The position numbers and the translations under genes are program-made. This document shows positions 11,388 through 37,388 of a DNA stretch of 64,000 nt, one piece after another; position 1 is the stretch's first letter; each line of letters begins with the position of its first letter. The stretch comes from Bacillota bacterium (GTDB lineage Bacteria > Bacillota > Desulfotomaculia > Desulfotomaculales > Ammonificaceae), in NCBI GenBank assembly GCA_040757355.1, contig JBFLWY010000012.1, forward strand, positions 204-64,203. The letters run 5' to 3'. The notes under the pieces are model-generated. The model worked only from the letters and a program-made list of their open reading frames with translations. It searched no databases and was not told the DNA's origin.

Positions 11388-12041
11388 TCAACCGGTCAGT
11401 ACGCTAAGGCGCCGGTTTATGGCGTCGAGTGTGGCCTTTACAATTGCTTCCGATTCCTCCTCGCCGACCACCGCCGTCCCGGTCAAGAACTCCTCCCCCA
11501 GAGGGGAAAGGAGCGAGACACCGACTAAGACCACCTGTTTCCCGGCTAACGTGACCACGGCAAGGTCCTCCAAAATGAAGGTGTAGCCGCTTTGAGACTG
11601 ATTATCGAGAGCCGTAAGCATCGCCTGGGCGACCAACCGCCGCCGGTTCCGGGTTGAGGCCGGGCCTACTGCTACACCGCTCAAGACCGATCCCTTGCTG
11701 GCAATTTCCACCCGGACCTCTATTTGATTACCTTTGGTACTCACATTGAGGCCTATAAAGCGGGGGCGTTGTTCGGTCGGTATCAAACCGTTGCTTTCCG
11801 GCGGCTCTTGAAGATGGTTTACGGTTACCGTATCCGGCTTGATGTCGACCGCAAAGTACTTCTTCAGGACCTCCACAACGTCCCCAGCCACATCCGACGA
11901 ACTCCGCTCTGCACCCGCTAAAACCTGAATTGCATTCACGGTGCCGTCCGTGCCTGTAATGACGCGAGCAGAAACCACATCCGGAATATTACGCAGCATT
12001 TCCTCGCATAAGGTTACCTGCCCAGCCTCTAAAGTAGTCAT
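11388..12041 (-). CDS. hypothetical protein (no family recognised)
   Basis: 217-aa ORF wedged between hpf and secA. It starts 28 nt after the hpf stop, has coding-like composition and no TM segment. The two halves are rich in V/A beta-alpha patterns. Confidence 0.6.
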   Translation of the reverse strand: MTTLEAGQVTLCEEMLRNIPDVVSARVITGTDGTVNAIQVLAGAERSSSDVAGDVVEVLKKYFAVDIKPDTVTVNHLQEPPESNGLIPTEQRPRFIGLNVSTKGNQIEVRVEIASKGSVLSGVAVGPASTRNRRRLVAQAMLTALDNQSQSGYTFILEDLAVVTLAGKQVVLVGVSLLSPLGEEFLTGTAVVGEEESEAIVKATLDAINRRLSVLTG

Positions 12042-12730: not shown

Positions 12731-12758
12731 TAAAAGACCCCGGCTCGCAGCCGGGGTC
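12731..12758 (-). terminator. rho-independent terminator of the cold-shock gene
   Basis: Minus-strand RNA forms GACCCCGGC-UGCGA-GCCGGGGUC (9-bp GC-rich stem) followed by UUUUAUAUUU. It lies 12 nt after the stop codon. Confidence 0.85.
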
Positions 12759-12770
12759 TCCGATTTGTCA

Positions 12771-12971
12771 TTATAATTTTGTTACGTTAGCTGCTTGCGG
12801 CCCCCGCGGACCTTGCACTATCTCAAATTCAACCTCCTCGCCCTCCTGGAGCGATTTAAAGCCTCTCTCCTGAATAGCGGAGTAATGCACAAAAACATCT
12901 CCCCCACCATCCAACCGTTCAATAAAACCGTAACCCTTTTCCCTGCTGAACCACTTGACTCGACCTTGCAT
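12771..12971 (-). CDS. cold-shock protein (CspA family)
   Basis: 66 aa with RNP1 KGYGFI and RNP2 VFVHYS motifs. Confidence 0.95.
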
Positions 12972-13124
12972 TTAAAACATTCCTCCTGAAAAATTTCTTG
13001 CGCGGGTTGCCGCGTAGCCGTATCGTAACACACCGCATATCGCCTGTCAAGTTTTTGAAGTACGCTTTTGCTGTGGGCGCCCGGATCAAAAGCTTTCCCG
13101 CTTTTCCCGGCAGCAACCCGGAAG

Positions 13125-13844
13125 TTATGAGCCGGCCTTAATAATCTGTACGGTGAGTTTGCGCTGGAAACGCTGCAATACCTGGACGGTATTCCAGCCT
13201 AATATGAGGCAGAATAAGACGTTTCCGACAGCATGTAGAGTATCGAACCAAAAACTTGCTACACAAGCGGCGATAAAGGCCTTCCAGTTCAGGGGGTGTA
13301 AAAAATATGTCCAAAACCAGAGGTTCATACCCCAACCGAAAATGTATCCCCAGAGAAGGTTGAAAAAGGCCAAGCTCCTGATGTTTGATGTCGGCCATAC
13401 CATTCCCCACAAACCTGCAGACACCCCGGCCAGTCCCCAATAAAACATCTGCCAGGGTGTCCAGGGACCCTGCCCCAAAAAGAAATTCGAGACCAGTGCA
13501 GCCGTGGAGCCGACCAGGAAGCCAGCCCGCGGACCGAAAACAAATCCGGAGATGATTACAATAAAGGTGGTCGGCTGTATCCCGGGCAATGCGGTGCAGC
13601 AAACGCGCCCCAGCGCTGCTATTGTGCCCAGAACGGAAATCACCGCCACCTCCCTATGGAGACCCCGGCTTCGCCCGTACGCTGTGTAAAACAGAATCAA
13701 AGCAACACCAACCATTACGGTGGAAATCAGGCCCCAACCCTGCCCGGTTACAAGGCCTTTTCCGCGGAGACTACATACCAACAACACAAAAAGGGCTAAT
13801 AGCAACAAGGGAAGGGTTAACTTCCTTATCAATGTGCTACGCAT
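13125..13844 (-). CDS. ECF-transporter substrate-capture (S) component candidate, presumably corrinoid-specific
   Basis: Polytopic membrane protein with ~6-7 hydrophobic segments and an FVFGPRAGFLVGS motif like other S components. It is the last gene of the riboswitch operon. ATG 13844 (MRSTLIRK) overlaps the ATPase stop by 8 nt. Specificity is inferred from context only. Confidence 0.6.
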   Translation of the reverse strand: MRSTLIRKLTLPLLLLALFVLLVCSLRGKGLVTGQGWGLISTVMVGVALILFYTAYGRSRGLHREVAVISVLGTIAALGRVCCTALPGIQPTTFIVIISGFVFGPRAGFLVGSTAALVSNFFLGQGPWTPWQMFYWGLAGVSAGLWGMVWPTSNIRSLAFFNLLWGYIFGWGMNLWFWTYFLHPLNWKAFIAACVASFWFDTLHAVGNVLFCLILGWNTVQVLQRFQRKLTVQIIKAGS

Positions 13845-15513
13845 GGAAAACCCGCCCCGATTTCGCTCTAGGAGCAACCCGCTGCAGAGCATCCTTGACC
13901 GTTACTACACCCTCTGCATAGCCTCTGAAAAGCTTACCCATCTGAGTGGTGTAAAACAACGACTCCCCGAGAACACGGGTTTTAGCGCCATCACTGACTA
14001 TGCGGCCGTCGAAGACCAATACCACCCGCGAAGCAAATTCCGCGGCAAATTCGATATCGTGGGTGACAAGTACTATGCTGACCCCGCTCCGGGCAAGGCC
14101 CGTTAGGAATTCTCCAAGCTCGGCCTTTAACACCGGGTCCAAGCCCCGGGTAGGTTCGTCAAGCGCCAGTAGGCTGGGCTGCATCACCGCCACCGACGCT
14201 AAGGCCACTCGTTGCCGCTCCCCGCTGCTGAGGTCGCGGGGGTGCCGGCGCCGGCTTTCGTCCAACCGCAACCGCCGGAGGAGTTCGTCCACGATACCGT
14301 CATCACGAAGTCCGTGGTTTCGGAGTGTAAATAACAATTCCTCCTCAACGGTCTCCCGGAGCAGATAATCGTTGGGGTTCTGAGAAAGGTAGGCCGGTCG
14401 CCGGTCCCTTCTCATACTGTCAGCGGTCTCTTCGCTCCCCGACAACACCTTTCCCCGTCCCGGTTTGAGCAGTCCCACCATTATTTTCAACAACGTGGTT
14501 TTCCCGGCCCCGTTTTCGCCCACCACGGCTACAAACTCTCCGGTACCCACCTCGAGGTTTACGGCGCGCAAAGCCTCCCTGCCGTTGGGATAGGTGAACC
14601 ACACGTCCTTCAACCGAACCACAGTAGCCGGTCGCGGGGCCGCCTTAGCGGCGGTTTCCGGTTGCGACCCAGCAAACGTAAAACTTGTTGGGAGAAGCTT
14701 ACGCCCTTCTTGAACTGTAAGAGGAACGGGGGAAACGCCTAGATGAGCGAAAAACCTGGCAACGGGCGGCACAAAGGGAAACCCTTTCTCTACCGCCCAA
14801 AGCGCTGCCTTTACCGGCTTTTCATCCTGGACGATCCGGCCATCGGTCATAAAAACCACCCGGTCAGCCAGGTGGTAACAACGCTCCAACCGTTGTTCCA
14901 CCAGTATTACAGTCAAACCGATTTCTTCATTTAATCGCTTTACGAGGTTCAGCAACTCTTCAGCGGCCACCGGGTCAAGTTGAGAAGTAGGCTCGTCGAG
15001 GATAAGCGCCCGCGGTTGCATCGCGAGCACAGCAGCAAGCGCCAGTTTTTGTTTCTGCCCGCCGGACAGGCTCGCGGTGAATTCCCCCCTCAACGAGGTA
15101 AGTCCTAAAAAACCCATGACCTCCGCGGCCCGCCGAAGCATTTCGTCCGGAGGCAGCCCCAAGTTTTCGAGGCCAAAGGCGATCTCCGCTTCGACACCGG
15201 TCATCACCACCTGTTTTTCCGGATCCTGAAAGACCATCCCTACTTCCCGCGCCACCTGCCGCCCATCCAGCTTACTCATTCTCTGCCCGCGAAAGTAAGT
15301 TTCTCCCGCAATCCTTCCCCCATAGAATTCCGGAATCAACCCGGCCAGGACCCGAACAAGAGAGGACTTCCCCGACCCGGAACCGCCGGCAACCAGCAGG
15401 AACTCCCCCTCGCCGATGCTCAGATTGATCTGTTGCAAAGCGGGACGTAACGCGTCCGGGTAAAAGTAGGTTAAATTTTCAATCTTAAACAAGGACAATA
15501 CCGCCACCCCCAA
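13837..15513 (-). CDS. ECF-transporter ATPase, fused double ABC cassette (EcfA-EcfA')
   Basis: Two cassettes are present. Walker A motifs are GGSGSGKSS and GENGAGKTT; signatures are LSGGQKQKL and LSSGERQRV; Walker B motifs are LILDEPTS and LLALDEPTR. The start is uncertain (a TTG near 15498 has a better RBS). Confidence 0.9.
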   Translation of the reverse strand: MGVAVLSLFKIENLTYFYPDALRPALQQINLSIGEGEFLLVAGGSGSGKSSLVRVLAGLIPEFYGGRIAGETYFRGQRMSKLDGRQVAREVGMVFQDPEKQVVMTGVEAEIAFGLENLGLPPDEMLRRAAEVMGFLGLTSLRGEFTASLSGGQKQKLALAAVLAMQPRALILDEPTSQLDPVAAEELLNLVKRLNEEIGLTVILVEQRLERCYHLADRVVFMTDGRIVQDEKPVKAALWAVEKGFPFVPPVARFFAHLGVSPVPLTVQEGRKLLPTSFTFAGSQPETAAKAAPRPATVVRLKDVWFTYPNGREALRAVNLEVGTGEFVAVVGENGAGKTTLLKIMVGLLKPGRGKVLSGSEETADSMRRDRRPAYLSQNPNDYLLRETVEEELLFTLRNHGLRDDGIVDELLRRLRLDESRRRHPRDLSSGERQRVALASVAVMQPSLLALDEPTRGLDPVLKAELGEFLTGLARSGVSIVLVTHDIEFAAEFASRVVLVFDGRIVSDGAKTRVLGESLFYTTQMGKLFRGYAEGVVTVKDALQRVAPRAKSGRVFHA

Positions 15514-16409
15514 CTCAATAAAACCGGTACCGACAAAAGGAGAATTATCGCCAGCAAGCCGGTGAGGGTCGCAGAATCAGCAACCAGGAACCCCAACCGC
15601 GGGTAGAAATCAAAAGAACCGCAACCGCGGACCCGGCACCAAACTGCCACCGCCAGGGCCAAAATGGCGCTGCCCGCACATAAGACATCCCGGGGACGGG
15701 TTAAATCCCTCCGGTAGCACGAACGCCGGCCGCTGCCATAGGCCCGCGCGTGCAGGGCTTCCGCAATTTCAAGAGAACTTTCCAGGGAAGAAGAAAGTAA
15801 AACAGTAACCGGCAACGTGCTTTTCTCCAACCTTTCTTTCCATGTACCTTTCTTAAAATCAACCCCACGGCATACAAGGGCTTCCCGGATGATCCCGAGA
15901 TGCCTGGCCATCATCGGAACCATCCTGGAAGACAAGGACAAAACCAGAGCACTTCCTGCAGCAAAGCGGGAAATCAGGTTCAGCACCTTATCGGGGTGCA
16001 CCATCAGATTATACAGGCAAAACACACTGACCACGTTGAGTAGCCGGACCCCCATGGCCGCGCCGCAGCAAAGGGCTTCCAAGGAAACGGTCACTGCTCC
16101 GATAACCGGTAGCCGTGGACCGTCCCAGATAACACTCTCGCCGCAGTTTACCGTTAGAGCGTTCACAATTATGATAAATAACGTCATGCCTACGGCAAAT
16201 TTTAGGTAACTCTCCCAGTAGCCCAGCCCATCAACGGCCCGTATGCTCAGGAAAATAACCCCTAATATGCCGAGGAGATAAAGCGGGTGATTGAACAATA
16301 GTGAAAGAACGAATAAAACACCCACGTAGGTCATGGCAGTTACAGGGTGGAGGCTTTGTAAAAACAGGCCCTTTTCTTGGTAGAAGAATTTTTCAAACAC
16401 CGGGTTCAC
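15471..16409 (-). CDS. ECF-transporter transmembrane (T) component, EcfT/CbiQ family
   Basis: 312 aa, multi-TM, with the ARG-containing coupling helices (SRMVPMMARHLGIIREALVCRGVD) typical of CbiQ/EcfT. Confidence 0.85.
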   Translation of the reverse strand: MNPVFEKFFYQEKGLFLQSLHPVTAMTYVGVLFVLSLLFNHPLYLLGILGVIFLSIRAVDGLGYWESYLKFAVGMTLFIIIVNALTVNCGESVIWDGPRLPVIGAVTVSLEALCCGAAMGVRLLNVVSVFCLYNLMVHPDKVLNLISRFAAGSALVLSLSSRMVPMMARHLGIIREALVCRGVDFKKGTWKERLEKSTLPVTVLLSSSLESSLEIAEALHARAYGSGRRSCYRRDLTRPRDVLCAGSAILALAVAVWCRVRGCGSFDFYPRLGFLVADSATLTGLLAIILLLSVPVLLSWGWRYCPCLRLKI

Positions 16410-16478: not shown

Positions 16479-17855
16479 CTAATACCGTATAAACACCGTG
16501 CCCGTGGTACTGTCCCAATCCACGCGATAGCCGAAAGCTTCCGCTACAAACCTAGCGGGGAGATAAGTCCTACCGCTCTTAATCAAAGGGATGGCGTCCA
16601 TTTTTTTAGCCCGGCCGTTCACATTGAGGACGGCATTTCCGATAACCAGGTCAAGTTCCGTCCCGTCCATCTTCAGGTTGACGGACCGGTTGCCGGCGTT
16701 CCAACGGATACCGGCTTCCGGCACGCCCAATGCACTCGCCAGATAACGCACGGGAACATAAGCGCGCCCGTTTTCAATAAACGGGCTGGCGTCGGCAACC
16801 AACTCTTGCCGGCACTCTCCCAAAACAACCGTATAGCGGCTGCTCCCGATGGTGAAACAAGCTTCTCTTTTCTTCTCATCCACTTTGCACGCAGCAGGCT
16901 GGGTATCCTTGTTCAACCTGCGAAAGAACGGTTCACCGCAGCGAAGGTCCGCTAAGGCCAGCAAAGCCTGGTAAGTGCTCATTTCGTTGCTTCCCGCACC
17001 CCTCACGTGTTCGAACGAGCCATCGGGCAACTGGAAGCGAAGCAACGCGTCGAGAAGACCGCCACCTGCCCGGCTGAATCCTTCCGAAGGATCGGCACTC
17101 ACTGACAACAGGCCTTCAATGACCATGGCACAGCTTTCCGGATTCTCTATACCCCATGATTCAAAACCGCCGTTTTCTTTCTGCGCACGTTGCAAAAAGC
17201 CGACAGCTCGCTCAACTGCGGTACTTTTATCATCGAGACCCAAAGCGCCAAGCGCCATCAACGCCGCGCCGGTTGTATCCACATCGGCCGTACTCATGTC
17301 CGCGGCATTCCAGCAAAAAGAACCGTCCGGATGCTGCCGCGTCGTTAACCACTCTATGGCGGCATCCTTGTCTGGAACGGCCGCACCTGCAGCGTACAGG
17401 GCCAACACCGCCCAAATATGAGCGTTAACAAGCCGTTCGCCGCCGGTAGTGACGTTATCGGCAAACTTGCCACTGGCAAGCTGAGCTTCCTTAAGCTTTC
17501 GCAAAAGGTCATACCCCTGGTAGTCTGCAGGGTCGCCGCCGGCGGCAAGCACCGTCAACACCAGTACCGCATAGTCGTTGGTTTCACCGGAGCTGAGGGC
17601 TGCTGCAAGCATCTTTTCAGCAGCACGGTCGACCTGTGTTAAAGTCAAATTTTGTCCCGCAGCCGCGAGGGCGATGTAACTCCAGGGGGATAAAGGCCCA
17701 CTACTCCTTTCTTTTGACAGCAGATAGCCGGCCGTACGTTGCACCGGTTGGTCCACGTCGCTTCTGGTAAAAGCACGGGCGTTTCCAGCATTAATACATG
17801 CCACCATACCGGTTATTAACAACACCACGAGAAACCTGCTGTTGTTTATTCGCAC
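16479..17855 (-). CDS. secreted alpha/alpha-toroid (prenyltransferase / terpene-cyclase-like repeat) protein with C-terminal copper-amine-oxidase-N-like domain
   Basis: GTG 17855 (RBS GGAGAGGTG) gives a signal peptide RINNSRFLVVLLITGMVAC. Repeated Q-x-x-DG-[SG]-F motifs occur (RQHPDGSFCW, QKENGGFESW, FQLPDGSFEH, LASGKFAD). The C-terminus RAYVPVRYLASALGV...GRTYLPARFVAEAFGYRVDWD resembles the Cu_amine_oxidN1 stalk domain. Confidence 0.75.
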   Translation of the reverse strand: MRINNSRFLVVLLITGMVACINAGNARAFTRSDVDQPVQRTAGYLLSKERSSGPLSPWSYIALAAAGQNLTLTQVDRAAEKMLAAALSSGETNDYAVLVLTVLAAGGDPADYQGYDLLRKLKEAQLASGKFADNVTTGGERLVNAHIWAVLALYAAGAAVPDKDAAIEWLTTRQHPDGSFCWNAADMSTADVDTTGAALMALGALGLDDKSTAVERAVGFLQRAQKENGGFESWGIENPESCAMVIEGLLSVSADPSEGFSRAGGGLLDALLRFQLPDGSFEHVRGAGSNEMSTYQALLALADLRCGEPFFRRLNKDTQPAACKVDEKKREACFTIGSSRYTVVLGECRQELVADASPFIENGRAYVPVRYLASALGVPEAGIRWNAGNRSVNLKMDGTELDLVIGNAVLNVNGRAKKMDAIPLIKSGRTYLPARFVAEAFGYRVDWDSTTGTVFIRY

Positions 17856-17887
17856 GAGTTCACCTCTCCGCAATAGATTACGTCCTA

Positions 17888-18622
17888 CTAGAAACCGAGA
17901 CTCTCCCAACTGGGGCCCGGGTTATCAATGCTTTCACTGTACCACCAGATAATCTTATCACCGTGCGCTATTCTCTTGGCTCCGGCCGCAATCATTGCAA
18001 CTTCGCCGTTGACCTTGTACATCCAACCGCACATTCCCTTGTTCGACTGCCCTGCTATACTGAACACCAGGTCATGATGCACGGCGCTTAGGCTGTAATC
18101 CAGCCCAGCGGCATCCAGGGCGCCTAAAACCGTTAAGCCCCATTTTCCACTGTTATTAACCACAACATTGGCAGGACCATATATCAAAACGCCTTTCATT
18201 CCAACGACGGCAATCGCTACCTGGACACTTCCGCCGGCTGGGGCCGCCGGCACCGCACCCTCTAAACCGCCCTCTTGACTGTCTGCCGGGAGTAAGTCCG
18301 ATCCGGACAGGCCTGACCGGCTTCCTTCGGGGGGAAGATTATTCTTAGGTTTTTGGAGCGGTCCAAAGTTTTTGACACTTTCGCTACCTGCCGAAGAACT
18401 CTCCGGCTTGATCTCTCCGGAAACCGTTTCATAAGTACTTTCGACTGCTGAACCTCCATTACCTGATTTCACAGCAGGCGAGCCTTCGTGATAACTCCCC
18501 GGCTCCCCGCACATATCATTGTCCGGCCGTGGGGAGTTAAGCTTCTGTTTGCACAAGGCCGGCCCCAGCAGGCACGACAGTATTATCAGCGCCGTTAAAA
18601 TATAACCCAAGTTACGTGTCAA
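17888..18622 (-). CDS. membrane-anchored DUF4430-type (transcobalamin beta-domain-like) protein
   Basis: TTG 18622 (RBS GGGGGTGG) gives the N-terminal TM YILTALIILSCLLGPALC, then a Ser/Pro/Gly-rich linker. The C-terminal domain VAIAVVGMKGVLIYGP...KWGLTVLGALDAAGL...GMCGWMYKVNGE...GDKIIWWYS is clearly paralogous to aa 663-770 of the 987-aa protein. The ORF-track start at 18676 is an alternative. Confidence 0.75.
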   Translation of the reverse strand: MTRNLGYILTALIILSCLLGPALCKQKLNSPRPDNDMCGEPGSYHEGSPAVKSGNGGSAVESTYETVSGEIKPESSSAGSESVKNFGPLQKPKNNLPPEGSRSGLSGSDLLPADSQEGGLEGAVPAAPAGGSVQVAIAVVGMKGVLIYGPANVVVNNSGKWGLTVLGALDAAGLDYSLSAVHHDLVFSIAGQSNKGMCGWMYKVNGEVAMIAAGAKRIAHGDKIIWWYSESIDNPGPSWESLGF

Positions 18623-18713
18623 CGAGAACCACCCCCACGATAAGCCGAATCCGTCACGCCGGAAGGAGCGCCGCACCCGCTGCAGCGCTCCCTCCAGTCC
18701 TTTGATGTTACTC

Positions 18714-21677
18714 TCAGTCTTTTTGCGCCGCGCCGGTCAACCTGAATACCATAACAGCGCATTCAGCGCGGCTCGCCAAGGTCCGGGGCCGGAAAGTGCC
18801 GTCAGGGAAGCCGGTTACAATGCCCCTGGCGGCTGCGATGGCCACACTGTCCCTGGCCCACAGAGAAATCTTATCGCTGTCTTTGTACCTCAGATCGGTT
18901 GCACCTTCCGGTGCCGCCAGGTTTAGGGCGCGTGCTAGGACAACCGTAGCTTCTTCCCGGGTAATGGCGTCATTCGGGCGGAATGACCCGTCGGCGTAGC
19001 CTTTGAACAAGCCGGCTTCGGCGGCGGCAATAACAGCAGCGGTATACCAATCGCCACTCCCAACATCAGTAAAGTGATTTGCCGGATTGTCTCCGCTGTC
19101 GAGGCCCAAAGCCCTGACAAGAAGGCTTGAAAACTCCGCCCTGGTCATTGCCCGGGCGGGCTCAAAATGAACCCCGTCCACCCCGTCGATTGCACCGGCC
19201 GCAGCAAGGGCCTCAACGGCATCCCATGCCCAAGCGAAAGAGCCGGCCCCTACGTCGGCAAAGCGCCCCTCCCCCGGGATTGGTGCCGGTTGCACATCCA
19301 CCGGTACAACCGGGGTTGGAGACGGCGCTTCATTCCCGCCCCCGGAGCTTGGTTCCACTTTTCTCTTGAGCAGGTCGTCCCATGCGGGAGCGGGGGAATT
19401 CAAGTCCACACTGTACCACCATAGAACCCGGTCTCCCGCCTGCAGGCCATAATCCTTGGCGGCGACCATAGGTACTGTATCGTTAACCTGGTACATCCAC
19501 CCACACATACCGCTGTTGGTTTGCCCAGCGATATTGATAACGAAGCCGTTTACATCCTGGTAAGTGAGACCGGTAGCGTGCAGCGCTCCTAACGGTGTGA
19601 GGCCCCACTTTCCGTAACTGCCGATCAGGACACTCTCGGGCCCGAAGAGCAGTTCGCCGTCTAGCCCCACAACGGCTATTTCCACGCTGCAATTGTTCCC
19701 TGACGACCCGGAACCGCCGCTGTCGTCCCCGGACGACCCGCCGGAATCACCAGCGTCCGGCGTGTCGCTTCCAGCCTGCTCAATCAGCAGGTAAGCGTGT
19801 AGGGCTTCGGTGGCGTCAAGAACGTTGCGGCACGCACCAAAACTGCCGTCCGGGTTCAAAGCGCTGTTCAACAAGTAGTCGACAGGGCTGAATCCGTCGC
19901 TGCTCTCCAATTCGGCCGGGTCCATCCCCTGTTGATATAGGGTGATGACGAATTCCGCCGTATCAACCAGGGGGTCGTCAGGCCAGGGTGTGTCCTTGTA
20001 AACGCTGCCGTCTACCTGCTGCCACTTTCCGAGATACCCGATACCGGTATCAATCGCTGTTTGTATCTCTCCATCCCCGGTAAAATCCGGTAAGCTAAGA
20101 AGGTGCGAAAGAGAACGAACGGCTTGGCAGGTGGCCATGAAATCGGCCCAGTCCTTATCCCAGGACCCGTAAGCATCGCCGGCAACCGTCTGTTGTCTGG
20201 AGAGAAGATACGCTTTTGCGCCGCTCACATCAAGGCTGTCGAGCCTGCCGGCCGTCCCCAGTGCAAGGTAAGCCCAGAGATCGCTGAAAATGTTGTTGTC
20301 AAAACCGTCAGCTGAATGCCTTTGTTGGAGGATTTCGGAGAGTTTGCCCACCCGGCCGGCGTCGTTCCACCCGGCTATGGCCATCAGGCACTCGGCGACG
20401 GTTTTCGACCGCGTCTGCTTCATCCACGGCGAGCCGTTGCCGGCGTAGTCTTCATACTCCTTTCCTAAGGCCTTGAGCGCAATCAGTGTCTCCGCAGTGG
20501 AAAAGGTACTGTCCCATTGAGCGGGAACGGCACCGGTATCGTTATCTTGAACGTCAAGGAGGTAGGTCAGGCCGCCCTCAATGTCTTTAAAAACAGTATG
20601 ATCGGGATCATCCGCTCCCTCAAAATAACTGAGCGCCGTGAGCACCTGCGCCGTCAGGTCGGATTCCTCAGGCAGATATCCACCCCAGGCCACGCCGGCG
20701 CTTGAACCCCAGCAGTCCACATGCTCGTGTTTGAACTCATTAAGGTATTCGAGAGCCTTTGCTTGGTCGATGCGGGAAACGTTTCCCGTCTTGCCGAGGG
20801 CGGTCAAGACCATCACATGATCGTAAACGCTTTGCCCGAAATTGCCGCCGTCCTGATTCTGTCCGCCAATTATGGCGTCGGCCAGCGTAGCGATATCATC
20901 TGAATGCGGGTAGACGGCATATAGAACGGTCAGTTCCTTCGCCAGATAAACTGCGTCCAAGGCAGAAGTGTCAGCGGCTGCAGCGGCCGCAGAAGCAAGC
21001 ACTTCCGCCTTTAGTGATTTACCGTTATAAACCCAGTCGCCGGTCGAAAGGTCCTCTCCGGCCTCAACCAGTGCTTCCACACACCGGTAGTCAAAACCGA
21101 ACCCGTTCACCTCGTAGCCGAGTTCTCCGCTCTGATACGCGGTACGGAAAAAACCGACCGCGCTGTCGATGGCATTCTTTACTTCGTCATAAACAGCAGA
21201 ACCGGCCGGCACATCCGGTCTTATCCGGGCGAGCGCCTGCAGCGCCGCTTTGGTGCCGTAAGCGCCGCCATATGGACCGAAGCTGCCGTCGTCGTTCTGC
21301 GTACCCAGGATGAAACTGATCAAGCCCCTCTCATCACCGCACAGATCACCCAGTTTTTCTATCCTGGCTTTTAAGGTTCTGGTGCCGGCCGTCCAAAACG
21401 GTCCCCCGCTCCACTTCTCGCCCGCCAGGTCTTCCCCCGCCAGCGTCAATACGTAAGCAGTATGACCGTTTATCAGTTCCCCGCCTTGATACTCCTTATT
21501 GATAAAATCCACCGCCTTCGCGGCAAGGTCCCCGGCGGAATACGCGCCGGACGGTACAGCCGGTTCATCAGCAACCCCAACAGAAACCGGCATCAGGAGT
21601 GAAACGATACCGGCGAAGAAAACTATGATCAACGCCAACGTAAAATAAGTCGGCCGCTTTTTGGTCTGTGCACCCAT
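18714..21677 (-). CDS. S-layer-homology-anchored surface protein: alpha/alpha-toroid repeats + DUF4430-type domain + 3 SLH (transcobalamin-like architecture)
   Basis: The signal peptide is aa 1-35. The toroid repeats span aa ~45-635 (nt 19773-21545; QNDDGSFGPYGG, QNQDGGNFGQ, VQDNDTGAVP, RHSADGFDN, WQQVDGSVY, LNPDGSFGAC). A G/S/D linker precedes the DUF4430-like domain at aa 663-770 (nt 19368-19691; GMCGWMYQVND...RVLWWYS). A Pro-rich linker precedes three SLH repeats at aa 805-983 (nt 18729-19265; FADVG..., FTDVG...GYADGSFRPND, YKDSD...GFPDGTFRP). Confidence 0.85.
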   Translation of the reverse strand: MGAQTKKRPTYFTLALIIVFFAGIVSLLMPVSVGVADEPAVPSGAYSAGDLAAKAVDFINKEYQGGELINGHTAYVLTLAGEDLAGEKWSGGPFWTAGTRTLKARIEKLGDLCGDERGLISFILGTQNDDGSFGPYGGAYGTKAALQALARIRPDVPAGSAVYDEVKNAIDSAVGFFRTAYQSGELGYEVNGFGFDYRCVEALVEAGEDLSTGDWVYNGKSLKAEVLASAAAAAADTSALDAVYLAKELTVLYAVYPHSDDIATLADAIIGGQNQDGGNFGQSVYDHVMVLTALGKTGNVSRIDQAKALEYLNEFKHEHVDCWGSSAGVAWGGYLPEESDLTAQVLTALSYFEGADDPDHTVFKDIEGGLTYLLDVQDNDTGAVPAQWDSTFSTAETLIALKALGKEYEDYAGNGSPWMKQTRSKTVAECLMAIAGWNDAGRVGKLSEILQQRHSADGFDNNIFSDLWAYLALGTAGRLDSLDVSGAKAYLLSRQQTVAGDAYGSWDKDWADFMATCQAVRSLSHLLSLPDFTGDGEIQTAIDTGIGYLGKWQQVDGSVYKDTPWPDDPLVDTAEFVITLYQQGMDPAELESSDGFSPVDYLLNSALNPDGSFGACRNVLDATEALHAYLLIEQAGSDTPDAGDSGGSSGDDSGGSGSSGNNCSVEIAVVGLDGELLFGPESVLIGSYGKWGLTPLGALHATGLTYQDVNGFVINIAGQTNSGMCGWMYQVNDTVPMVAAKDYGLQAGDRVLWWYSVDLNSPAPAWDDLLKRKVEPSSGGGNEAPSPTPVVPVDVQPAPIPGEGRFADVGAGSFAWAWDAVEALAAAGAIDGVDGVHFEPARAMTRAEFSSLLVRALGLDSGDNPANHFTDVGSGDWYTAAVIAAAEAGLFKGYADGSFRPNDAITREEATVVLARALNLAAPEGATDLRYKDSDKISLWARDSVAIAAARGIVTGFPDGTFRPRTLASRAECAVMVFRLTGAAQKD

Positions 21678-21893
21678 TTCTCGTTCAGCCCACCTTTCGC
21701 TCCTAAAAGTCTAAGAAATCAATCGTTTGTTCCGGGGGCGCCAGCCCGTTTTTTTGTTACAGGAGGGCTTCACCCACGACCAGCCCGGACCCGCATGAAA
21801 AAATCCCCCATCATAACGGACGGAGGATAATCTTCCATGTGCGTGAATACGCCATGCCAAACACCCCCTATTCGCGTAGGTTGGGTTTGAAAC

Positions 21894-22132
21894 GGAACGG
21901 GCAGGTCTCCTGGCTCGGCTTCACCGGCACCTTTTGTCTTCCCAGGCATCCCAGCAGTTGTGATTACCTGCGGTTCGGCATTCGGGTTCCCTATAAAGGA
22001 CCCGTATACGCCGCATACCGCCGGGAGCAGCCCAGTGACATTTTGCAAGGCACCTCCCCCTTACAGTGGCGGAACCGCGCCGGATTCACACCGGCTTCCC
22101 TTTTCACCGCCCAAAGGGCAAGCACCCGTTCC
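21894..22132 (-). promoter_or_regulatory. cobalamin (B12) riboswitch aptamer
   Basis: On minus-strand RNA, P1 is GGAACGGG (22132-22125) pairing with CCCGUUCC (21901-21894). The core is GGUGAAAAGGGAAGCCGGUGUGAAUCCGGCGCGGUUCCGCCACUGUAAGGGGGAG. The CACUGGG...CUGGGAAG elements are present, as is the B12 box AGCCAGGAGACCUGCC (21915-21900). Confidence 0.9.
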
Positions 22133-22152
22133 ATGTATTAAATTGTTAACTC

Positions 22153-37264: not shown

Positions 37265-37388
37265 CAAATCGCATTACCCCCCGTCTCGGTCCTTCGCGGC
37301 TCCAAGCGGTATTTCCCAACAAACTCTAAAACCGGGTGAGGCTCCCTCTAAGGATGCCGCCCTTACATAAAATGACTTACAGGTTACA

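What the first reader, a model, noticed from the sequence alone, without database searches (positions are those of the whole stretch)
18714..21677. 987-aa fusion of alpha/alpha toroid, DUF4430 beta domain and three SLH repeats
Seen in the translation: a signal peptide, then ~590 aa with at least six Q/N-x-x-DG-[SG]-F/x repeat motifs. The domain order after that is a Gly/Ser/Asp linker, a ~105-aa domain with GMCGWMYQVND...RVLWWYS, a Pro-rich linker and three SLH repeats. The order toroid-linker-beta is the same as in eukaryotic cobalamin carriers. Here it is extended by a cell-wall anchor, and the toroid part is roughly double-sized, possibly two toroids. A single polypeptide that could clamp a corrinoid while bound non-covalently to secondary cell-wall polymer is an unusual architecture.
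Basis: partly seen in the sequence, partly recalled or inferred. Interest (0 to 1): 0.7.

Follow-up and report, generated by a model that had tools for sequence, protein, structure and literature searches.

The report
Wall-anchored bacterial transcobalamin-like B12 catcher
This gene encodes a cell-wall-anchored protein built like the animal vitamin-B12 carrier transcobalamin, and it leads a B12-riboswitch-controlled operon for a B12 importer; the protein is real, but this kind was predicted by computation in 2007 and has never been tested biochemically.

Summary
It runs signal peptide, ~590 helical residues, Gly/Ser/Asp linker, DUF4430 beta domain, Pro-rich linker, three SLH repeats.

An AlphaFold2 model (pLDDT 91) finds transcobalamin, haptocorrin and intrinsic factor as its 12 best PDB matches. 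The helical part is two toroid-type domains. The second toroid plus the beta domain carries the transcobalamin likeness. By sequence that toroid is a squalene-hopene-cyclase-type toroid without the catalytic DxDD motif. The first is a divergent extra toroid.

The context settles the cargo. A cobalamin riboswitch (111 bits) with a terminator precedes the gene. Downstream lie a membrane-tethered second beta-domain protein, a separate toroid protein, EcfT, fused EcfAA' and an S component whose only PDB relative is the cobalamin importer CbrT. In other species, 56 of 57 informative loci keep the riboswitch and 45 of 48 keep the full ECF set.

Burroughs et al. (2007) described this fusion, its paralogous second beta protein, the CbiO/CbiQ operons and a B12-scavenging role. 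It is a new member of a known, biochemically untested kind. Ligand binding and the docking geometry of the beta domain remain unverified.

The parts
21883..22144 (-). Cobalamin riboswitch aptamer (RF00174) in the operon leader
   Evidence: Rfam gathering-threshold match, 111 bits, E 6e-27, full model 1-189 with an ~80-nt insertion. Recovered again by the nhmmer family profile.
21803..21828 (-). Intrinsic terminator-like hairpin followed by TTTTTT. Probably the riboswitch expression platform (transcription-attenuation OFF switch).
   Evidence: Terminator scan: 10-bp stem with 5 GC pairs, then a T run, 55 nt after the aptamer and ~125 nt before the ATG. Its function is inferred.
18714..21677 (-). 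The 987-aa gene of the finding: secreted, SLH-anchored, transcobalamin-like protein
   Evidence: ORF. AGGAG ribosome-binding site ~15 nt upstream. 100% identical to an NCBI MAG protein annotated 'S-layer homology domain-containing protein [Bacillota bacterium]'.
21570..21677 (-). Signal peptide (aa 1-36), predicted cleavage after G-V-A36
   Evidence: Read from the sequence: K/R n-region, hydrophobic core, small residues at -3 and -1. No predictor was run.
20676..21548 (-). Toroid 1 (T1, aa ~44-334): divergent alpha/alpha-toroid-class domain, 12 helices plus a beta hairpin
   Evidence: AF2 model of T1 alone has pLDDT 89.4. Foldseek gives only weak hits (no E<=1e-3), nearly all to toroid proteins: FTase beta, SHC (TMq 0.43, rmsd 5.8 A), complement TED, drimenyl-PP synthase. 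Transcobalamin is only rank 37. Homologous to T2. As conserved as T2 across the family.
19764..20675 (-). Toroid 2 (T2, aa 335-638): squalene-hopene-cyclase-type toroid without the DxDD motif. It is the counterpart of the transcobalamin alpha domain.
   Evidence: Family profile vs PDB: SHC E 2.6e-14. The conserved 'YYPDF[LM]ST' aligns on SHC 'YYPDVDDT'; the window reads WADFMAT. No DxDD anywhere in the protein. Best match to the neighbouring 476-aa toroid protein. The transcobalamin hits must come from T2+beta, because T1 alone loses them.
19701..19763 (-). Gly/Ser/Asp-rich flexible linker (aa ~639-659)
   Evidence: pLDDT <50 for model residues 604-624. Composition.
19368..19700 (-). Beta domain (aa ~660-770): DUF4430, i.e. 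SLBB beta-grasp of the transcobalamin-like clade
   Evidence: Pfam PF14478, E 5.9e-12. Beta-rich fold with pLDDT 85-95. 50% identical to the beta domain of the next gene. Invariant G-W-M...N...W-W-Y.
18738..19265 (-). Three SLH repeats (aa ~805-980), preceded by a Pro-rich linker at 19266-19367
   Evidence: Pfam SLH, E 1e-36, 3 stretches. Aligns to Sap SLH structures 6bt4/3pyw, E 1e-16.
17888..18676 (-). 262-aa small beta protein: N-terminal signal-anchor helix, ~110-aa low-complexity tether, DUF4430 beta domain
   Evidence: Pfam DUF4430, E 9e-14. In 52 of 53 orthologues there is a K/R stretch plus a hydrophobic helix (LLGPA[IV]Y), then a linker of 80-150 aa that is 80-90% S/G/P/T/E/D/N/Q/A/K. 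Membrane topology is inferred.
16479..17909 (-). 476-aa secreted toroid protein with a C-terminal Cu_amine_oxidN1 domain. The ORF's TTG start is probably too far upstream.
   Evidence: Pfam Cu_amine_oxidN1 1.8e-33, SQHop_cyclase_C 7e-10, Prenyltrans 2.9e-9. A separate toroid protein is present in 24 of 48 related operons, so it is optional.
15471..16409 (-). EcfT (CbiQ-family) transmembrane coupling component
   Evidence: Pfam CbiQ, E 4.1e-9. Conserved in 45 of 48 loci.
13837..15513 (-). Fused EcfA-EcfA' double ABC ATPase (558 aa)
   Evidence: Pfam ABC_tran, E 1.6e-56, two stretches. Conserved in 45 of 48 loci.
13125..13892 (-). ECF S component, CbrT-like
   Evidence: Pfam ECF_trnsprt 1.2e-7. 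The only significant PDB sequence hit is 6fnp_A = CbrT of the L. delbrueckii cobalamin/cobinamide importer, E 4.2e-12 over 161 residues.
12733..12761 (-). Strong terminator-like hairpin that closes the operon
   Evidence: 13-bp stem with 8 GC pairs, then a T-rich tail, between the S-component gene and hpf.

Best explanation
The 987-aa protein is the outermost part of a corrinoid (vitamin B12 or cobinamide) uptake system in a Gram-positive-type anaerobe.

It is secreted and held on the cell wall by three SLH repeats, which bind secondary cell-wall polymer. It displays a transcobalamin-like capture module: a catalytically dead terpene-cyclase-type alpha/alpha toroid (T2) joined by a flexible linker to an SLBB/DUF4430 beta-grasp domain. 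By analogy with transcobalamin, these two domains would sandwich one corrinoid between them. A second, divergent toroid (T1) sits N-terminal to this module and its role is unknown.

The captured corrinoid is then passed inward. The most likely route is via the operon's second beta domain, which hangs from a membrane anchor on a ~100-residue flexible tether and may pair with the separate secreted toroid protein. The endpoint is the CbrT-like S component of a dedicated ECF transporter (EcfT and EcfAA'), which imports the corrinoid using ATP.

The whole operon is switched off by a cobalamin riboswitch with a terminator when intracellular adenosylcobalamin is sufficient.

Shown here: the domain architecture, the fold similarities, the riboswitch, the gene content and their conservation across species.

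Inferred: corrinoid binding, the sandwich geometry, surface localisation, the membrane topology of the small beta protein, and the relay.
For: Architecture and fold
- Pfam DUF4430 and three SLH stretches.
- AF2 model with pLDDT 91.1 and pTM 0.81.
- Foldseek PDB ranks 1-12 are transcobalamin or haptocorrin, and intrinsic factor also hits. Alignments cover ~400 columns of ~400-aa targets, prob 1.00, E down to 3.9e-7.

Cargo
- RF00174 riboswitch at 111 bits directly upstream, with a terminator hairpin as expression platform.
- Riboswitch confirmed by Rfam in 6 of 6 and 7 of 7 related loci. A family profile finds it in 56 of 57 loci with upstream sequence.
- The S component matches only CbrT (6FNP) in the PDB, E 4.2e-12. 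ECF-CbrT transports cobalamin and cobinamide experimentally (PMC5997447).
- CbiZ, a corrinoid-salvage amidohydrolase family, is adjacent in L001, L003 and L004.

Operon
- EcfT, EcfAA' and EcfS are present in 45 of 48 loci, and a small beta gene in at least 49 of 61.
- The small beta protein has a signal-anchor and a long low-complexity tether in 52 of 53 cases.

Not an enzyme
- The DxDD motif is replaced by D-F-[LM]-S.

Independent prior prediction
- Burroughs et al. 2007 made the same functional prediction (PMC1796856).
- A split alpha/beta version sits in an ECF operon in L. sakei (bioRxiv 10.1101/864751).
Against: - No binding or transport data exist for any member of this bacterial family.
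- The superposition on transcobalamin is only moderate (TMt 0.44-0.51, rmsd ~11 A). The model therefore does not show the beta domain docked on the toroid as in holo-transcobalamin. I could not inspect coordinates or PAE.
- No sequence-level link to the carriers was found. Profiles of the beta domain alone found nothing in the PDB. Profiles of T2+beta found no cobalamin carrier at E<=10. Pfam Cobalamin_bind does not hit.
- The only experimentally studied related operon, in L. sakei, was interpreted as a heme importer.
- The role of T1 is unexplained. Single-toroid and triple-toroid variants exist.
- A riboswitch shows regulation by B12, not the identity of the transported molecule.
Confidence: 0.75

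Rival explanations
1. The system takes up heme or another tetrapyrrole rather than a corrinoid, as proposed for the similarly composed L. sakei lsa1836-1840 operon. The toroid and beta domains would clamp heme.
For: bioRxiv 10.1101/864751 reports an ECF S/AA'/T operon with transcobalamin alpha-like and beta-like secreted proteins. It includes heme docking and experimental links to heme uptake. Tetrapyrroles are similar in shape.
Against: - A cobalamin riboswitch precedes 56 of 57 informative operons of this family, including the most divergent architectures.
- The S component is specifically CbrT-like.
- CbiZ is adjacent in several loci.
- ECF-CbrT is a demonstrated cobalamin/cobinamide importer (PMC5997447).
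- I did not test whether the L. sakei proteins are homologous to these.
Confidence: 0.05
2. The protein does bind corrinoids at the surface, but its main role is sequestration, storage or competition (hoarding a scarce cofactor, or discriminating among cobamide analogues) rather than direct hand-off to the transporter. The small beta protein and the separate toroid protein would be the actual delivery pair.
For: - Bacteroides surface B12-binding lipoproteins are a precedent for surface capture in competition for corrinoids (PMC6143338, listed).
- The operon encodes its own membrane-proximal beta protein, and often a separate toroid, which resembles the split L. sakei pair.
- The number of toroids in the big protein varies from 1 to 3, suggesting a modular capture surface.
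Against: - The big gene is first in the operon and almost always co-transcribed with the transporter, which fits a shared pathway.
- The separate toroid protein is present in only 24 of 48 operons, so a dedicated alpha/beta delivery pair is not universal.
- The available data do not distinguish this from the main explanation.
Confidence: 0.15
3. The toroid domains are enzymes (terpenoid cyclase or prenyltransferase-like, or a polysaccharide-active alpha/alpha-toroid enzyme acting on the cell wall), and the DUF4430 domain is an accessory binding module.
For: - Significant sequence similarity to squalene-hopene cyclase (E 2.6e-14), with weaker hits to RabGGTase beta and PL10 pectate lyase.
- Some database sources name homologues 'prenyltransferase/squalene oxidase repeat-containing protein' or 'Endo-1,4-beta-xylanase A precursor'.
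Against: - The catalytic DxDD of class II cyclases is replaced by D-F-[LM]-S across the family, and DxDD is absent from the whole protein.
- The protein is secreted, away from isoprenoid diphosphate substrates.
- The B12 riboswitch and the ECF-CbrT context do not fit an enzyme of terpenoid or polysaccharide metabolism.
Confidence: 0.03
4. The operon imports cobalt or nickel ions (a CbiMNQO/NikMNQO-type ECF system, as the Pfam names CbiQ and CbiO suggest), and the surface proteins are unrelated wall proteins.
For: The Pfam match of the T component is to 'CbiQ, cobalt transport protein'. Cobalt transporters are also commonly controlled by B12 riboswitches (PMC3766115).
Against: - No CbiM or CbiN is present.
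- The S component matches the ECF_trnsprt family and CbrT specifically.
- CbiQ is simply the Pfam family of all EcfT components.
- The toroid and beta genes are co-oriented, tightly spaced and conserved with the ECF genes in 45 of 48 loci.
Confidence: 0.02

Closest known systems
Eukaryotic cobalamin carriers: transcobalamin, intrinsic factor, haptocorrin (PDB 2BB5, 8IXU, 4KKI, 2PMV)
   Same: - Secreted.
- N-terminal alpha/alpha toroid, flexible linker, then a C-terminal ~100-aa beta-grasp domain of Pfam DUF4430.
- They are the best structural matches in the PDB, aligned over their full length.
- Linked to B12 here by genomic context.
   Different: - No detectable sequence similarity to the alpha domain.
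- An extra N-terminal toroid (T1).
- A C-terminal SLH wall anchor in place of receptor-mediated endocytosis.
- Delivery to an ECF transporter.
- Only moderate superposition (TM ~0.5, rmsd ~11 A).
- Ligand binding untested.
Bacterial transcobalamin-like clade of the SLBB beta-grasp superfamily (Burroughs, Balaji, Iyer & Aravind 2007, Biol Direct 2:4; example Desulfotomaculum gi 88945170)
   Same: - Signal peptide.
[quoted passage not shown] - CbiO-like and CbiQ-like genes in the operon.
- Predicted scavenging of B12 or its precursors.

The window protein is a member of this described group.
   Different: The paper's text does not mention the following, which this analysis adds:
- SLH anchoring.
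- The cobalamin riboswitch.
- The CbrT-like S component.
- The doubled toroid and its terpene-cyclase ancestry with a lost DxDD motif.
- The membrane tether of the small beta protein.
L. sakei Lsa1836-1840 ECF-like system (bioRxiv 10.1101/864751)
   Same: An ECF S, AA' and T operon that also encodes secreted transcobalamin beta-like (Lsa1839) and alpha-like (Lsa1840) proteins. The authors propose that extracellular binders feed an ECF transporter. This mirrors the window's 262-aa and 476-aa genes.
   Different: - Alpha and beta are separate proteins only; there is no large fused SLH-anchored protein.
- The cargo was argued to be heme.
- Homology to the window proteins, and the presence of a riboswitch there, were not tested here.
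ECF-CbrT of Lactobacillus delbrueckii (PDB 6FNP; Santos et al. 2018, PMC5997447)
   Same: The S component is homologous (E 4.2e-12). The transporter is ECF-type with EcfT and two ATPase domains. CbrT transports cobalamin and cobinamide.
   Different: - L. delbrueckii CbrT shares a general ECF module and, as described, has no extracellular accessory proteins.
- Here the module is dedicated, the ATPases are fused, and two or three extracytoplasmic proteins are co-encoded.
Bacteroides surface B12-binding lipoprotein BtuG (PMC6143338), and BtuF of BtuCDF
   Same: Functional analogy: extracytoplasmic high-affinity corrinoid capture ahead of a membrane transporter, in loci controlled by B12 riboswitches (abstract; BtuF).
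   Different: Unrelated folds and anchoring. The comparison rests on the papers, not on a test done here.
Class II terpene cyclases (squalene-hopene cyclase, oxidosqualene cyclase, drimenyl-PP synthase)
   Same: - Two consecutive alpha/alpha toroid domains.
- Significant sequence similarity of T2 to the SHC domain that carries the active site (E 2.6e-14).
- QxxDG(S/G)(F/W)-type repeat motifs.
   Different: - DxDD catalytic motif lost.
- Secreted.
- Relative domain orientation differs (TM 0.15-0.25, rmsd >20 A).
- Fused to beta-grasp and SLH domains.

Membership tests
Transcobalamin/intrinsic factor/haptocorrin family (eukaryotic cobalamin-binding proteins) | N-terminal alpha6/alpha6 toroid domain | tested here: met
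   The AF2 model is helical over aa 48-637. Foldseek top hits are TC, HC and IF, followed by other toroid proteins.
Transcobalamin/intrinsic factor/haptocorrin family (eukaryotic cobalamin-binding proteins) | C-terminal beta domain (Pfam DUF4430 / SLBB) after a flexible linker | tested here: met
   PF14478, E 5.9e-12. Disordered linker at model residues 604-624. DUF4430 is the TCN C-terminal domain (PMC4350170).
Transcobalamin/intrinsic factor/haptocorrin family (eukaryotic cobalamin-binding proteins) | Sequence membership of the alpha domain (Pfam Cobalamin_bind PF01122, or a profile hit to TC/IF/HC) | tested here: not met
   No PF01122 hit at E<=0.01. Family profiles find no TC, IF or HC chain at E<=10, and they hit squalene-hopene cyclase instead.
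Transcobalamin/intrinsic factor/haptocorrin family (eukaryotic cobalamin-binding proteins) | Beta domain packed on the toroid face, enclosing one cobalamin | tested here: inconclusive
   Full-length alignments to holo-TC give TMt of only 0.44-0.51 and rmsd ~11 A.
Transcobalamin/intrinsic factor/haptocorrin family (eukaryotic cobalamin-binding proteins) | High-affinity cobalamin binding | not testable with these tools
   Needs purified protein.
Bacterial transcobalamin-like SLBB clade (Burroughs et al. 2007) | Secreted or surface protein with an SLBB domain fused to an alpha/alpha toroid | tested here: met
   Description in PMC1796856.
Bacterial transcobalamin-like SLBB clade (Burroughs et al. 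2007) | [quoted passage not shown] | tested here: met
   In the window: 262-aa DUF4430 protein, CbiQ and a double ABC ATPase. Conserved across loci.
ECF-CbrT-type cobalamin importer | S component homologous to CbrT | tested here: met
   6fnp_A, E 4.2e-12 over 161 aligned residues. No other S component in the PDB is hit at E<=10.
ECF-CbrT-type cobalamin importer | EcfT plus two EcfA ATPase domains | tested here: met
   Pfam CbiQ 4.1e-9; ABC_tran 1.6e-56 with two stretches.
ECF-CbrT-type cobalamin importer | ATP-dependent cobalamin/cobinamide transport | not testable with these tools
   Shown for L. delbrueckii ECF-CbrT only (PMC5997447).
Cobalamin-riboswitch regulon | RF00174 aptamer above the gathering score in the 5' leader, same strand, with an expression platform | tested here: met
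   111 bits against a 31.5 gathering score. Terminator hairpin at 21803-21828. Conserved in 56 of 57 loci.
SLH-anchored cell-wall proteins | Three tandem SLH motifs forming one SCWP-binding module | tested here: met
   Pfam SLH, 3 stretches, E 1e-36. Aligned over 173 residues to the Sap SLH structures. SCWP binding itself was not tested.
Class II terpene cyclases | Two alpha/alpha toroid domains with sequence similarity to SHC | tested here: met
   SHC E 2.6e-14. T1 and T2 are homologous. OSC and DMS align over 600-700 columns.
Class II terpene cyclases | Catalytic DxDD(TA) motif | tested here: not met
   No D-x-D-D anywhere in the protein. The aligned position reads D-F-M-A in the window and D-F-[LM]-S in the family. 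The protein is therefore not filed as a cyclase.

The most novel reading that the evidence does not exclude
This would be an ECF transporter that, contrary to the textbook definition of ECF systems as lacking extracytoplasmic binding proteins, works with a three-tier capture relay across the thick cell envelope.

1. A wall-anchored 'bacterial transcobalamin' catches corrinoids at the surface.
2. A membrane-anchored beta domain on a ~100-residue leash fetches them, alone or paired with a free toroid protein.
3. It hands them to CbrT.

A corollary is that the animal B12 carriers descend from such dead terpene-cyclase-toroid plus beta-grasp fusions of Firmicutes. The extra toroid T1, and the variation from one to three toroids, would then tune capacity or cobamide selectivity.
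Probability: 0.3. Interest if true: 0.65.

Novelty: new member of a known kind. Interest (0 to 1): 0.4.

Why it matters
How Gram-positive bacteria capture scarce corrinoids at the cell surface is largely unknown. The characterised systems are BtuB/BtuF/BtuCD, BtuG and ECF-CbrT.

This family is a strong, well-delimited candidate for a bacterial counterpart, and possibly the ancestor, of transcobalamin and intrinsic factor. It would also give ECF transporters extracytoplasmic binding proteins, which they are defined as lacking.

The evidence gathered here gives an experimenter a precise construct (aa 37-775) and a specific ligand to test. That evidence is the riboswitch in 56 of 57 operons, the CbrT-like S component, the dead cyclase toroid and the tethered second beta domain.

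The idea itself is not new. It was published as a computational prediction in 2007, so the value lies in sharpening and quantifying it.

Tried and rejected
1. Two-to-two pairing. I proposed that the small beta protein pairs in trans with T1, giving two toroids to two beta domains. Rejected: single-toroid fusions (L041, L043-45, L047, L053, L059-61) still have the small beta gene, and triple-toroid versions exist.

2. Lipoprotein anchoring of the 262-aa protein (an ILSC lipobox-like site). Rejected: only 6 of 53 orthologues have any lipobox-like site. 52 of 53 have an uncleaved-looking K/R plus hydrophobic helix with the motif LLGPA[IV]Y.

3. Direct sequence link to transcobalamin. Not found in any of these searches:
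- single-sequence PDB searches;
- a beta-domain family profile, 0 hits;
- a diverse T2+beta profile, no carrier at E<=10.

4. T1 as a second transcobalamin-like alpha domain. T1 alone gives only weak Foldseek hits, with TC at rank 37 and E 0.22.

5. Cyclase activity. DxDD is absent.

6. Heme or cobalt as cargo. See the rival explanations.

7. Literature dead ends:
- The CbrS/CbrT term search was swamped by unrelated acronyms.
- Rodionov 2009 (PMC2612444) is not held.
- PMC2667541, PMC3766115 and PMC11477304 do not mention these proteins.
- Searches for ECF-CbrT with corrinoid, and for cobalamin riboswitch with S-layer homology, found no experimental work on this family.

8. Genomic look-ups of P0064 and P0054 failed; neither is on record.

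9. A covariance model of the riboswitch was not built. An nhmmer profile plus Rfam spot checks was enough.

Full report
**Observation**

The ORF at 18714..21677 on the minus strand encodes 987 aa, as reported. Its parts are:
- A Sec-type signal peptide. The N-terminus has a K/R n-region, a hydrophobic core and G34-V-A36|D37. This was read from the sequence.
- A helical region of about 590 aa.
- A Gly/Ser/Asp linker.
- A domain that matches Pfam DUF4430 (E 5.9e-12).
- A Pro-rich linker.
- Three SLH stretches (E 1e-36). The SLH module aligns over 173 residues with the B. anthracis Sap SLH structures (E 1e-16).

The only overstated detail is the repeat count. The strict motif [QN]xxDG[SG] occurs three times, plus LNPDGSF. 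Six or more requires counting degenerate copies.

**Structure**

With a 50-sequence family alignment, AlphaFold2 gives a confident model of aa 36-776 (pLDDT 91.1, pTM 0.81). It has 25 helices, a disordered linker and a beta-rich domain.

In Foldseek against the PDB:
- The first 12 hits are transcobalamin or haptocorrin, and intrinsic factor follows. Each is aligned over essentially its whole ~400 residues (prob 1.00, E down to 3.9e-7).
- Double-toroid class II terpene cyclases and single-toroid prenyltransferase beta subunits come next.
- The superposition is only moderate (TMt 0.44-0.51, rmsd ~11 A). The order and kind of domains match, but I cannot say that the beta domain is docked as in holo-transcobalamin.

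**One toroid or two**

- The two halves of the helical region are homologous to each other (hhalign prob 95.5%, E 1.5e-8).
- T1 (aa 36-334) modelled alone folds confidently (pLDDT 89.4).
- T1 alone gives only weak Foldseek hits, nearly all to toroid proteins, and transcobalamin falls to rank 37.
- The transcobalamin-like module is therefore T2 plus the beta domain. T1 is an extra, divergent toroid-class domain.
- T2 is also the half that best matches the toroid of the neighbouring 476-aa protein.

**Sequence relationships of T2**

- A diverse profile of T2+beta from 44 species hits squalene-hopene cyclase at E 2.6e-14. It hits no cobalamin carrier even at E<=10.
- The alignment puts the family's conserved YYPDF[LM]ST on the cyclase's YYPDVDDT. 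The first Asp of DxDD is kept and the catalytic pair is lost (window: WADFMAT). No DxDD occurs anywhere in the protein.
- T2 is thus a catalytically dead terpene-cyclase-type toroid.
- The link of the beta domain to transcobalamin rests on three things: the Pfam DUF4430 model (which covers the TCN C-terminal domain, PMC4350170), the 2007 SLBB analysis, and the fold match.
- A narrow beta-domain profile finds nothing in the PDB.

**Context in the window**

- Rfam finds a cobalamin riboswitch at 21883-22144 on the same strand (111 bits).
- It is followed by a terminator-like hairpin with a T run at 21803-21828, an AGGAG site and the ATG. This is the layout of a transcription-attenuation OFF switch.
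- Downstream on the same strand, with short gaps or overlaps, lie five more genes:
  - a 262-aa DUF4430 protein whose beta domain is 50% identical to that of the big protein;
  - a 476-aa toroid protein with a Cu_amine_oxidN1 domain;
  - a CbiQ-family EcfT;
  - a fused double ABC ATPase;
  - an ECF S component.
- The S component's only PDB relative is chain A of 6FNP (E 4.2e-12). That chain is CbrT of the L. delbrueckii ECF transporter, which was shown to import cobalamin and cobinamide (PMC5997447).
- A strong terminator at 12733-12761 ends the unit.
- The rest of the window is housekeeping and holds no cob/cbi genes.

**Conservation**

- About 79 homologue clusters at 40-61% identity come from thermophilic anaerobic Firmicutes.
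- An exhaustive search of 1.84 billion representatives finds 560 relatives of T2+beta.
- Six loci fetched by exact protein all show the same operon and an Rfam-confirmed riboswitch. CbiZ is adjacent in three of them.
- A scan of one genome per species returned 71 further loci, which I annotated with my own HMMs. Among 67 loci with a toroid-beta fusion (66 unique contigs):
  - 56 of 57 with at least 600 nt upstream carry the riboswitch on the same strand within 3 kb. The exception (L052) has the fusion gene at the end of an operon whose start is off the locus.
  - 45 of 48 with enough downstream sequence carry EcfT, EcfAA' and EcfS.
  - At least 49 of 61 carry the small beta gene.
  - 24 of 48 carry a separate toroid protein.
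- Rfam confirmed RF00174 in all seven of the most divergent loci sampled.
- The number of toroids in the big protein varies: two in most, three in L022/L028, one in about a dozen species, and a reversed beta-toroid order in L068-70.
- Most homologues carry an extra ~170-aa domain between the beta domain and SLH, which the window protein lacks.

**The small beta protein**

In 52 of 53 orthologues a K/R stretch and a strongly hydrophobic helix (LLGPA[IV]Y) come first. An 80-150-aa linker made 80-90% of small and polar residues follows, and then the beta domain. I read this as a membrane-anchored beta domain on a long leash. The topology is inferred.

**Mechanism proposed**

- Shown: the architecture, the folds, the regulation, the gene content and their conservation.
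- Inferred: the wall-anchored protein catches a corrinoid between T2 and its beta domain, as transcobalamin does. The tethered beta domain, sometimes with the free toroid protein, relays it to CbrT. The ECF module imports it. The riboswitch shuts the operon when adenosylcobalamin is plentiful.
- Confidence that this is a corrinoid-capture accessory of an ECF-CbrT-type importer: about 0.75.
- The relay details and the role of T1 are much less certain.

**Rivals**

- Heme uptake, as argued for the similarly composed L. sakei operon. It is disfavoured by the riboswitch statistics and the CbrT likeness.
- Sequestration or competition rather than hand-off. This cannot be separated from the main view with these data.
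- An enzymatic role. It is disfavoured by the lost DxDD motif and by secretion.
- Cobalt import. It is disfavoured by the absence of CbiM/CbiN.

**What is known**

Burroughs, Balaji, Iyer and Aravind (2007; PMC1796856) described:
- the transcobalamin-like clade of the SLBB beta-grasp superfamily in Gram-positive bacteria;
- the paralogous second SLBB protein;
- the CbiO/CbiQ operons;
- a predicted role in scavenging B12 or its precursors;
- a proposed transfer of the toroid+SLBB fusion to animals.

The L. sakei preprint recognised split alpha-like and beta-like proteins in an ECF operon. I found no biochemical study of the fused, SLH-anchored family.

What this analysis adds:
- the near-universal riboswitch;
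- the CbrT-type S component;
- the terpene-cyclase origin and dead active site of the toroid;
- the variable toroid number;
- the tethered beta protein.

**Verdict**

The architecture is neither unusual in these lineages nor new to the literature. It is a new member of a known, computationally predicted and experimentally untested kind. Interest 0.4.

Noticed in passing
window 37277-37363 (-): A pan motif RNA (RF01749, 50.7 bits) lies upstream of a DUF2520/Rossmann-like gene, panB and panC, with a nadA/nadB/nadC, birA, coaX and dus cluster downstream. This is an ordinary cofactor-biosynthesis neighbourhood.
   Followed up: partly
window 11388-12041 (-): A 217-aa ORF between hpf and secA has no Pfam family at E<=1e-5.
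   Followed up: no
window 12762-13124 (-): About 360 nt lie between the S-component stop and the operon terminator. The stretch contains a good sigma-70-like site (TTGACA, 17 nt, TACGAT with TG; 13050-13022) upstream of that terminator. Its purpose is unclear.
   Followed up: no
L004 6364-6911; also L009, L012, L020, L022, L033, L043, L044, L053: Tandem cobalamin riboswitches (two aptamers in series) precede the operon in about nine species. This may give a sharper or dual-ligand response.
   Followed up: partly
L022 5238-9665 and L028 9878-14302: Triple-toroid versions of the big protein (T1-T2-T2-beta-SLH, ~1475 aa). These loci and L029 also carry two S-component genes, one directly after the big gene.
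   Followed up: no
L068 6519-7988, L069 4293-5750, L070 1-1335: Short (~445-489 aa) proteins with the reversed order beta-toroid and no SLH. They are still followed by a small beta gene and ECF genes, and are preceded by the riboswitch. This matches the 'C-terminal toroid' type that Burroughs et al. noted in Bacillus.
   Followed up: partly
L041, L047, L053, L060, L061 (big gene): Single-toroid variants keep a ~45-residue match to the start of T1, followed by the C-terminal two-thirds of T2. This suggests either a deletion that fused T1 and T2, or that the double toroid arose by internal duplication.
   Followed up: no
L071-L073, L075, L076 (Methanomicrobiales MAGs): Archaeal proteins carry one to three DUF4430-like beta domains, next to a ~660-aa toroid protein in L071-L073. 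This is in line with the sporadic archaeal transfers proposed in 2007. Their context was not examined.
   Followed up: no
L001 18531-19640, L003 18657-19742, L004 8179-8937: CbiZ (adenosylcobinamide amidohydrolase family) genes directly flank the operon in three species. L001 also has BtuF/FecCD-type ABC transporters on both sides. This points to corrinoid salvage or remodelling.
   Followed up: partly
alignment A1, region between the beta domain and SLH in most homologues (absent from the window protein, L016 and L021): A conserved ~170-aa domain (…FGPDGTxFxxPxTLxL…LAxYDxxxGxW…HFSxxAVLA) has mostly no Pfam hit; a few are flagged Big_2 or ZU5. Its function is unknown.
   Followed up: no
L043 4610-4708 (+): A TPP riboswitch (76.8 bits) lies a few kb upstream of the B12 operon in one MAG. 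It is incidental.
   Followed up: no
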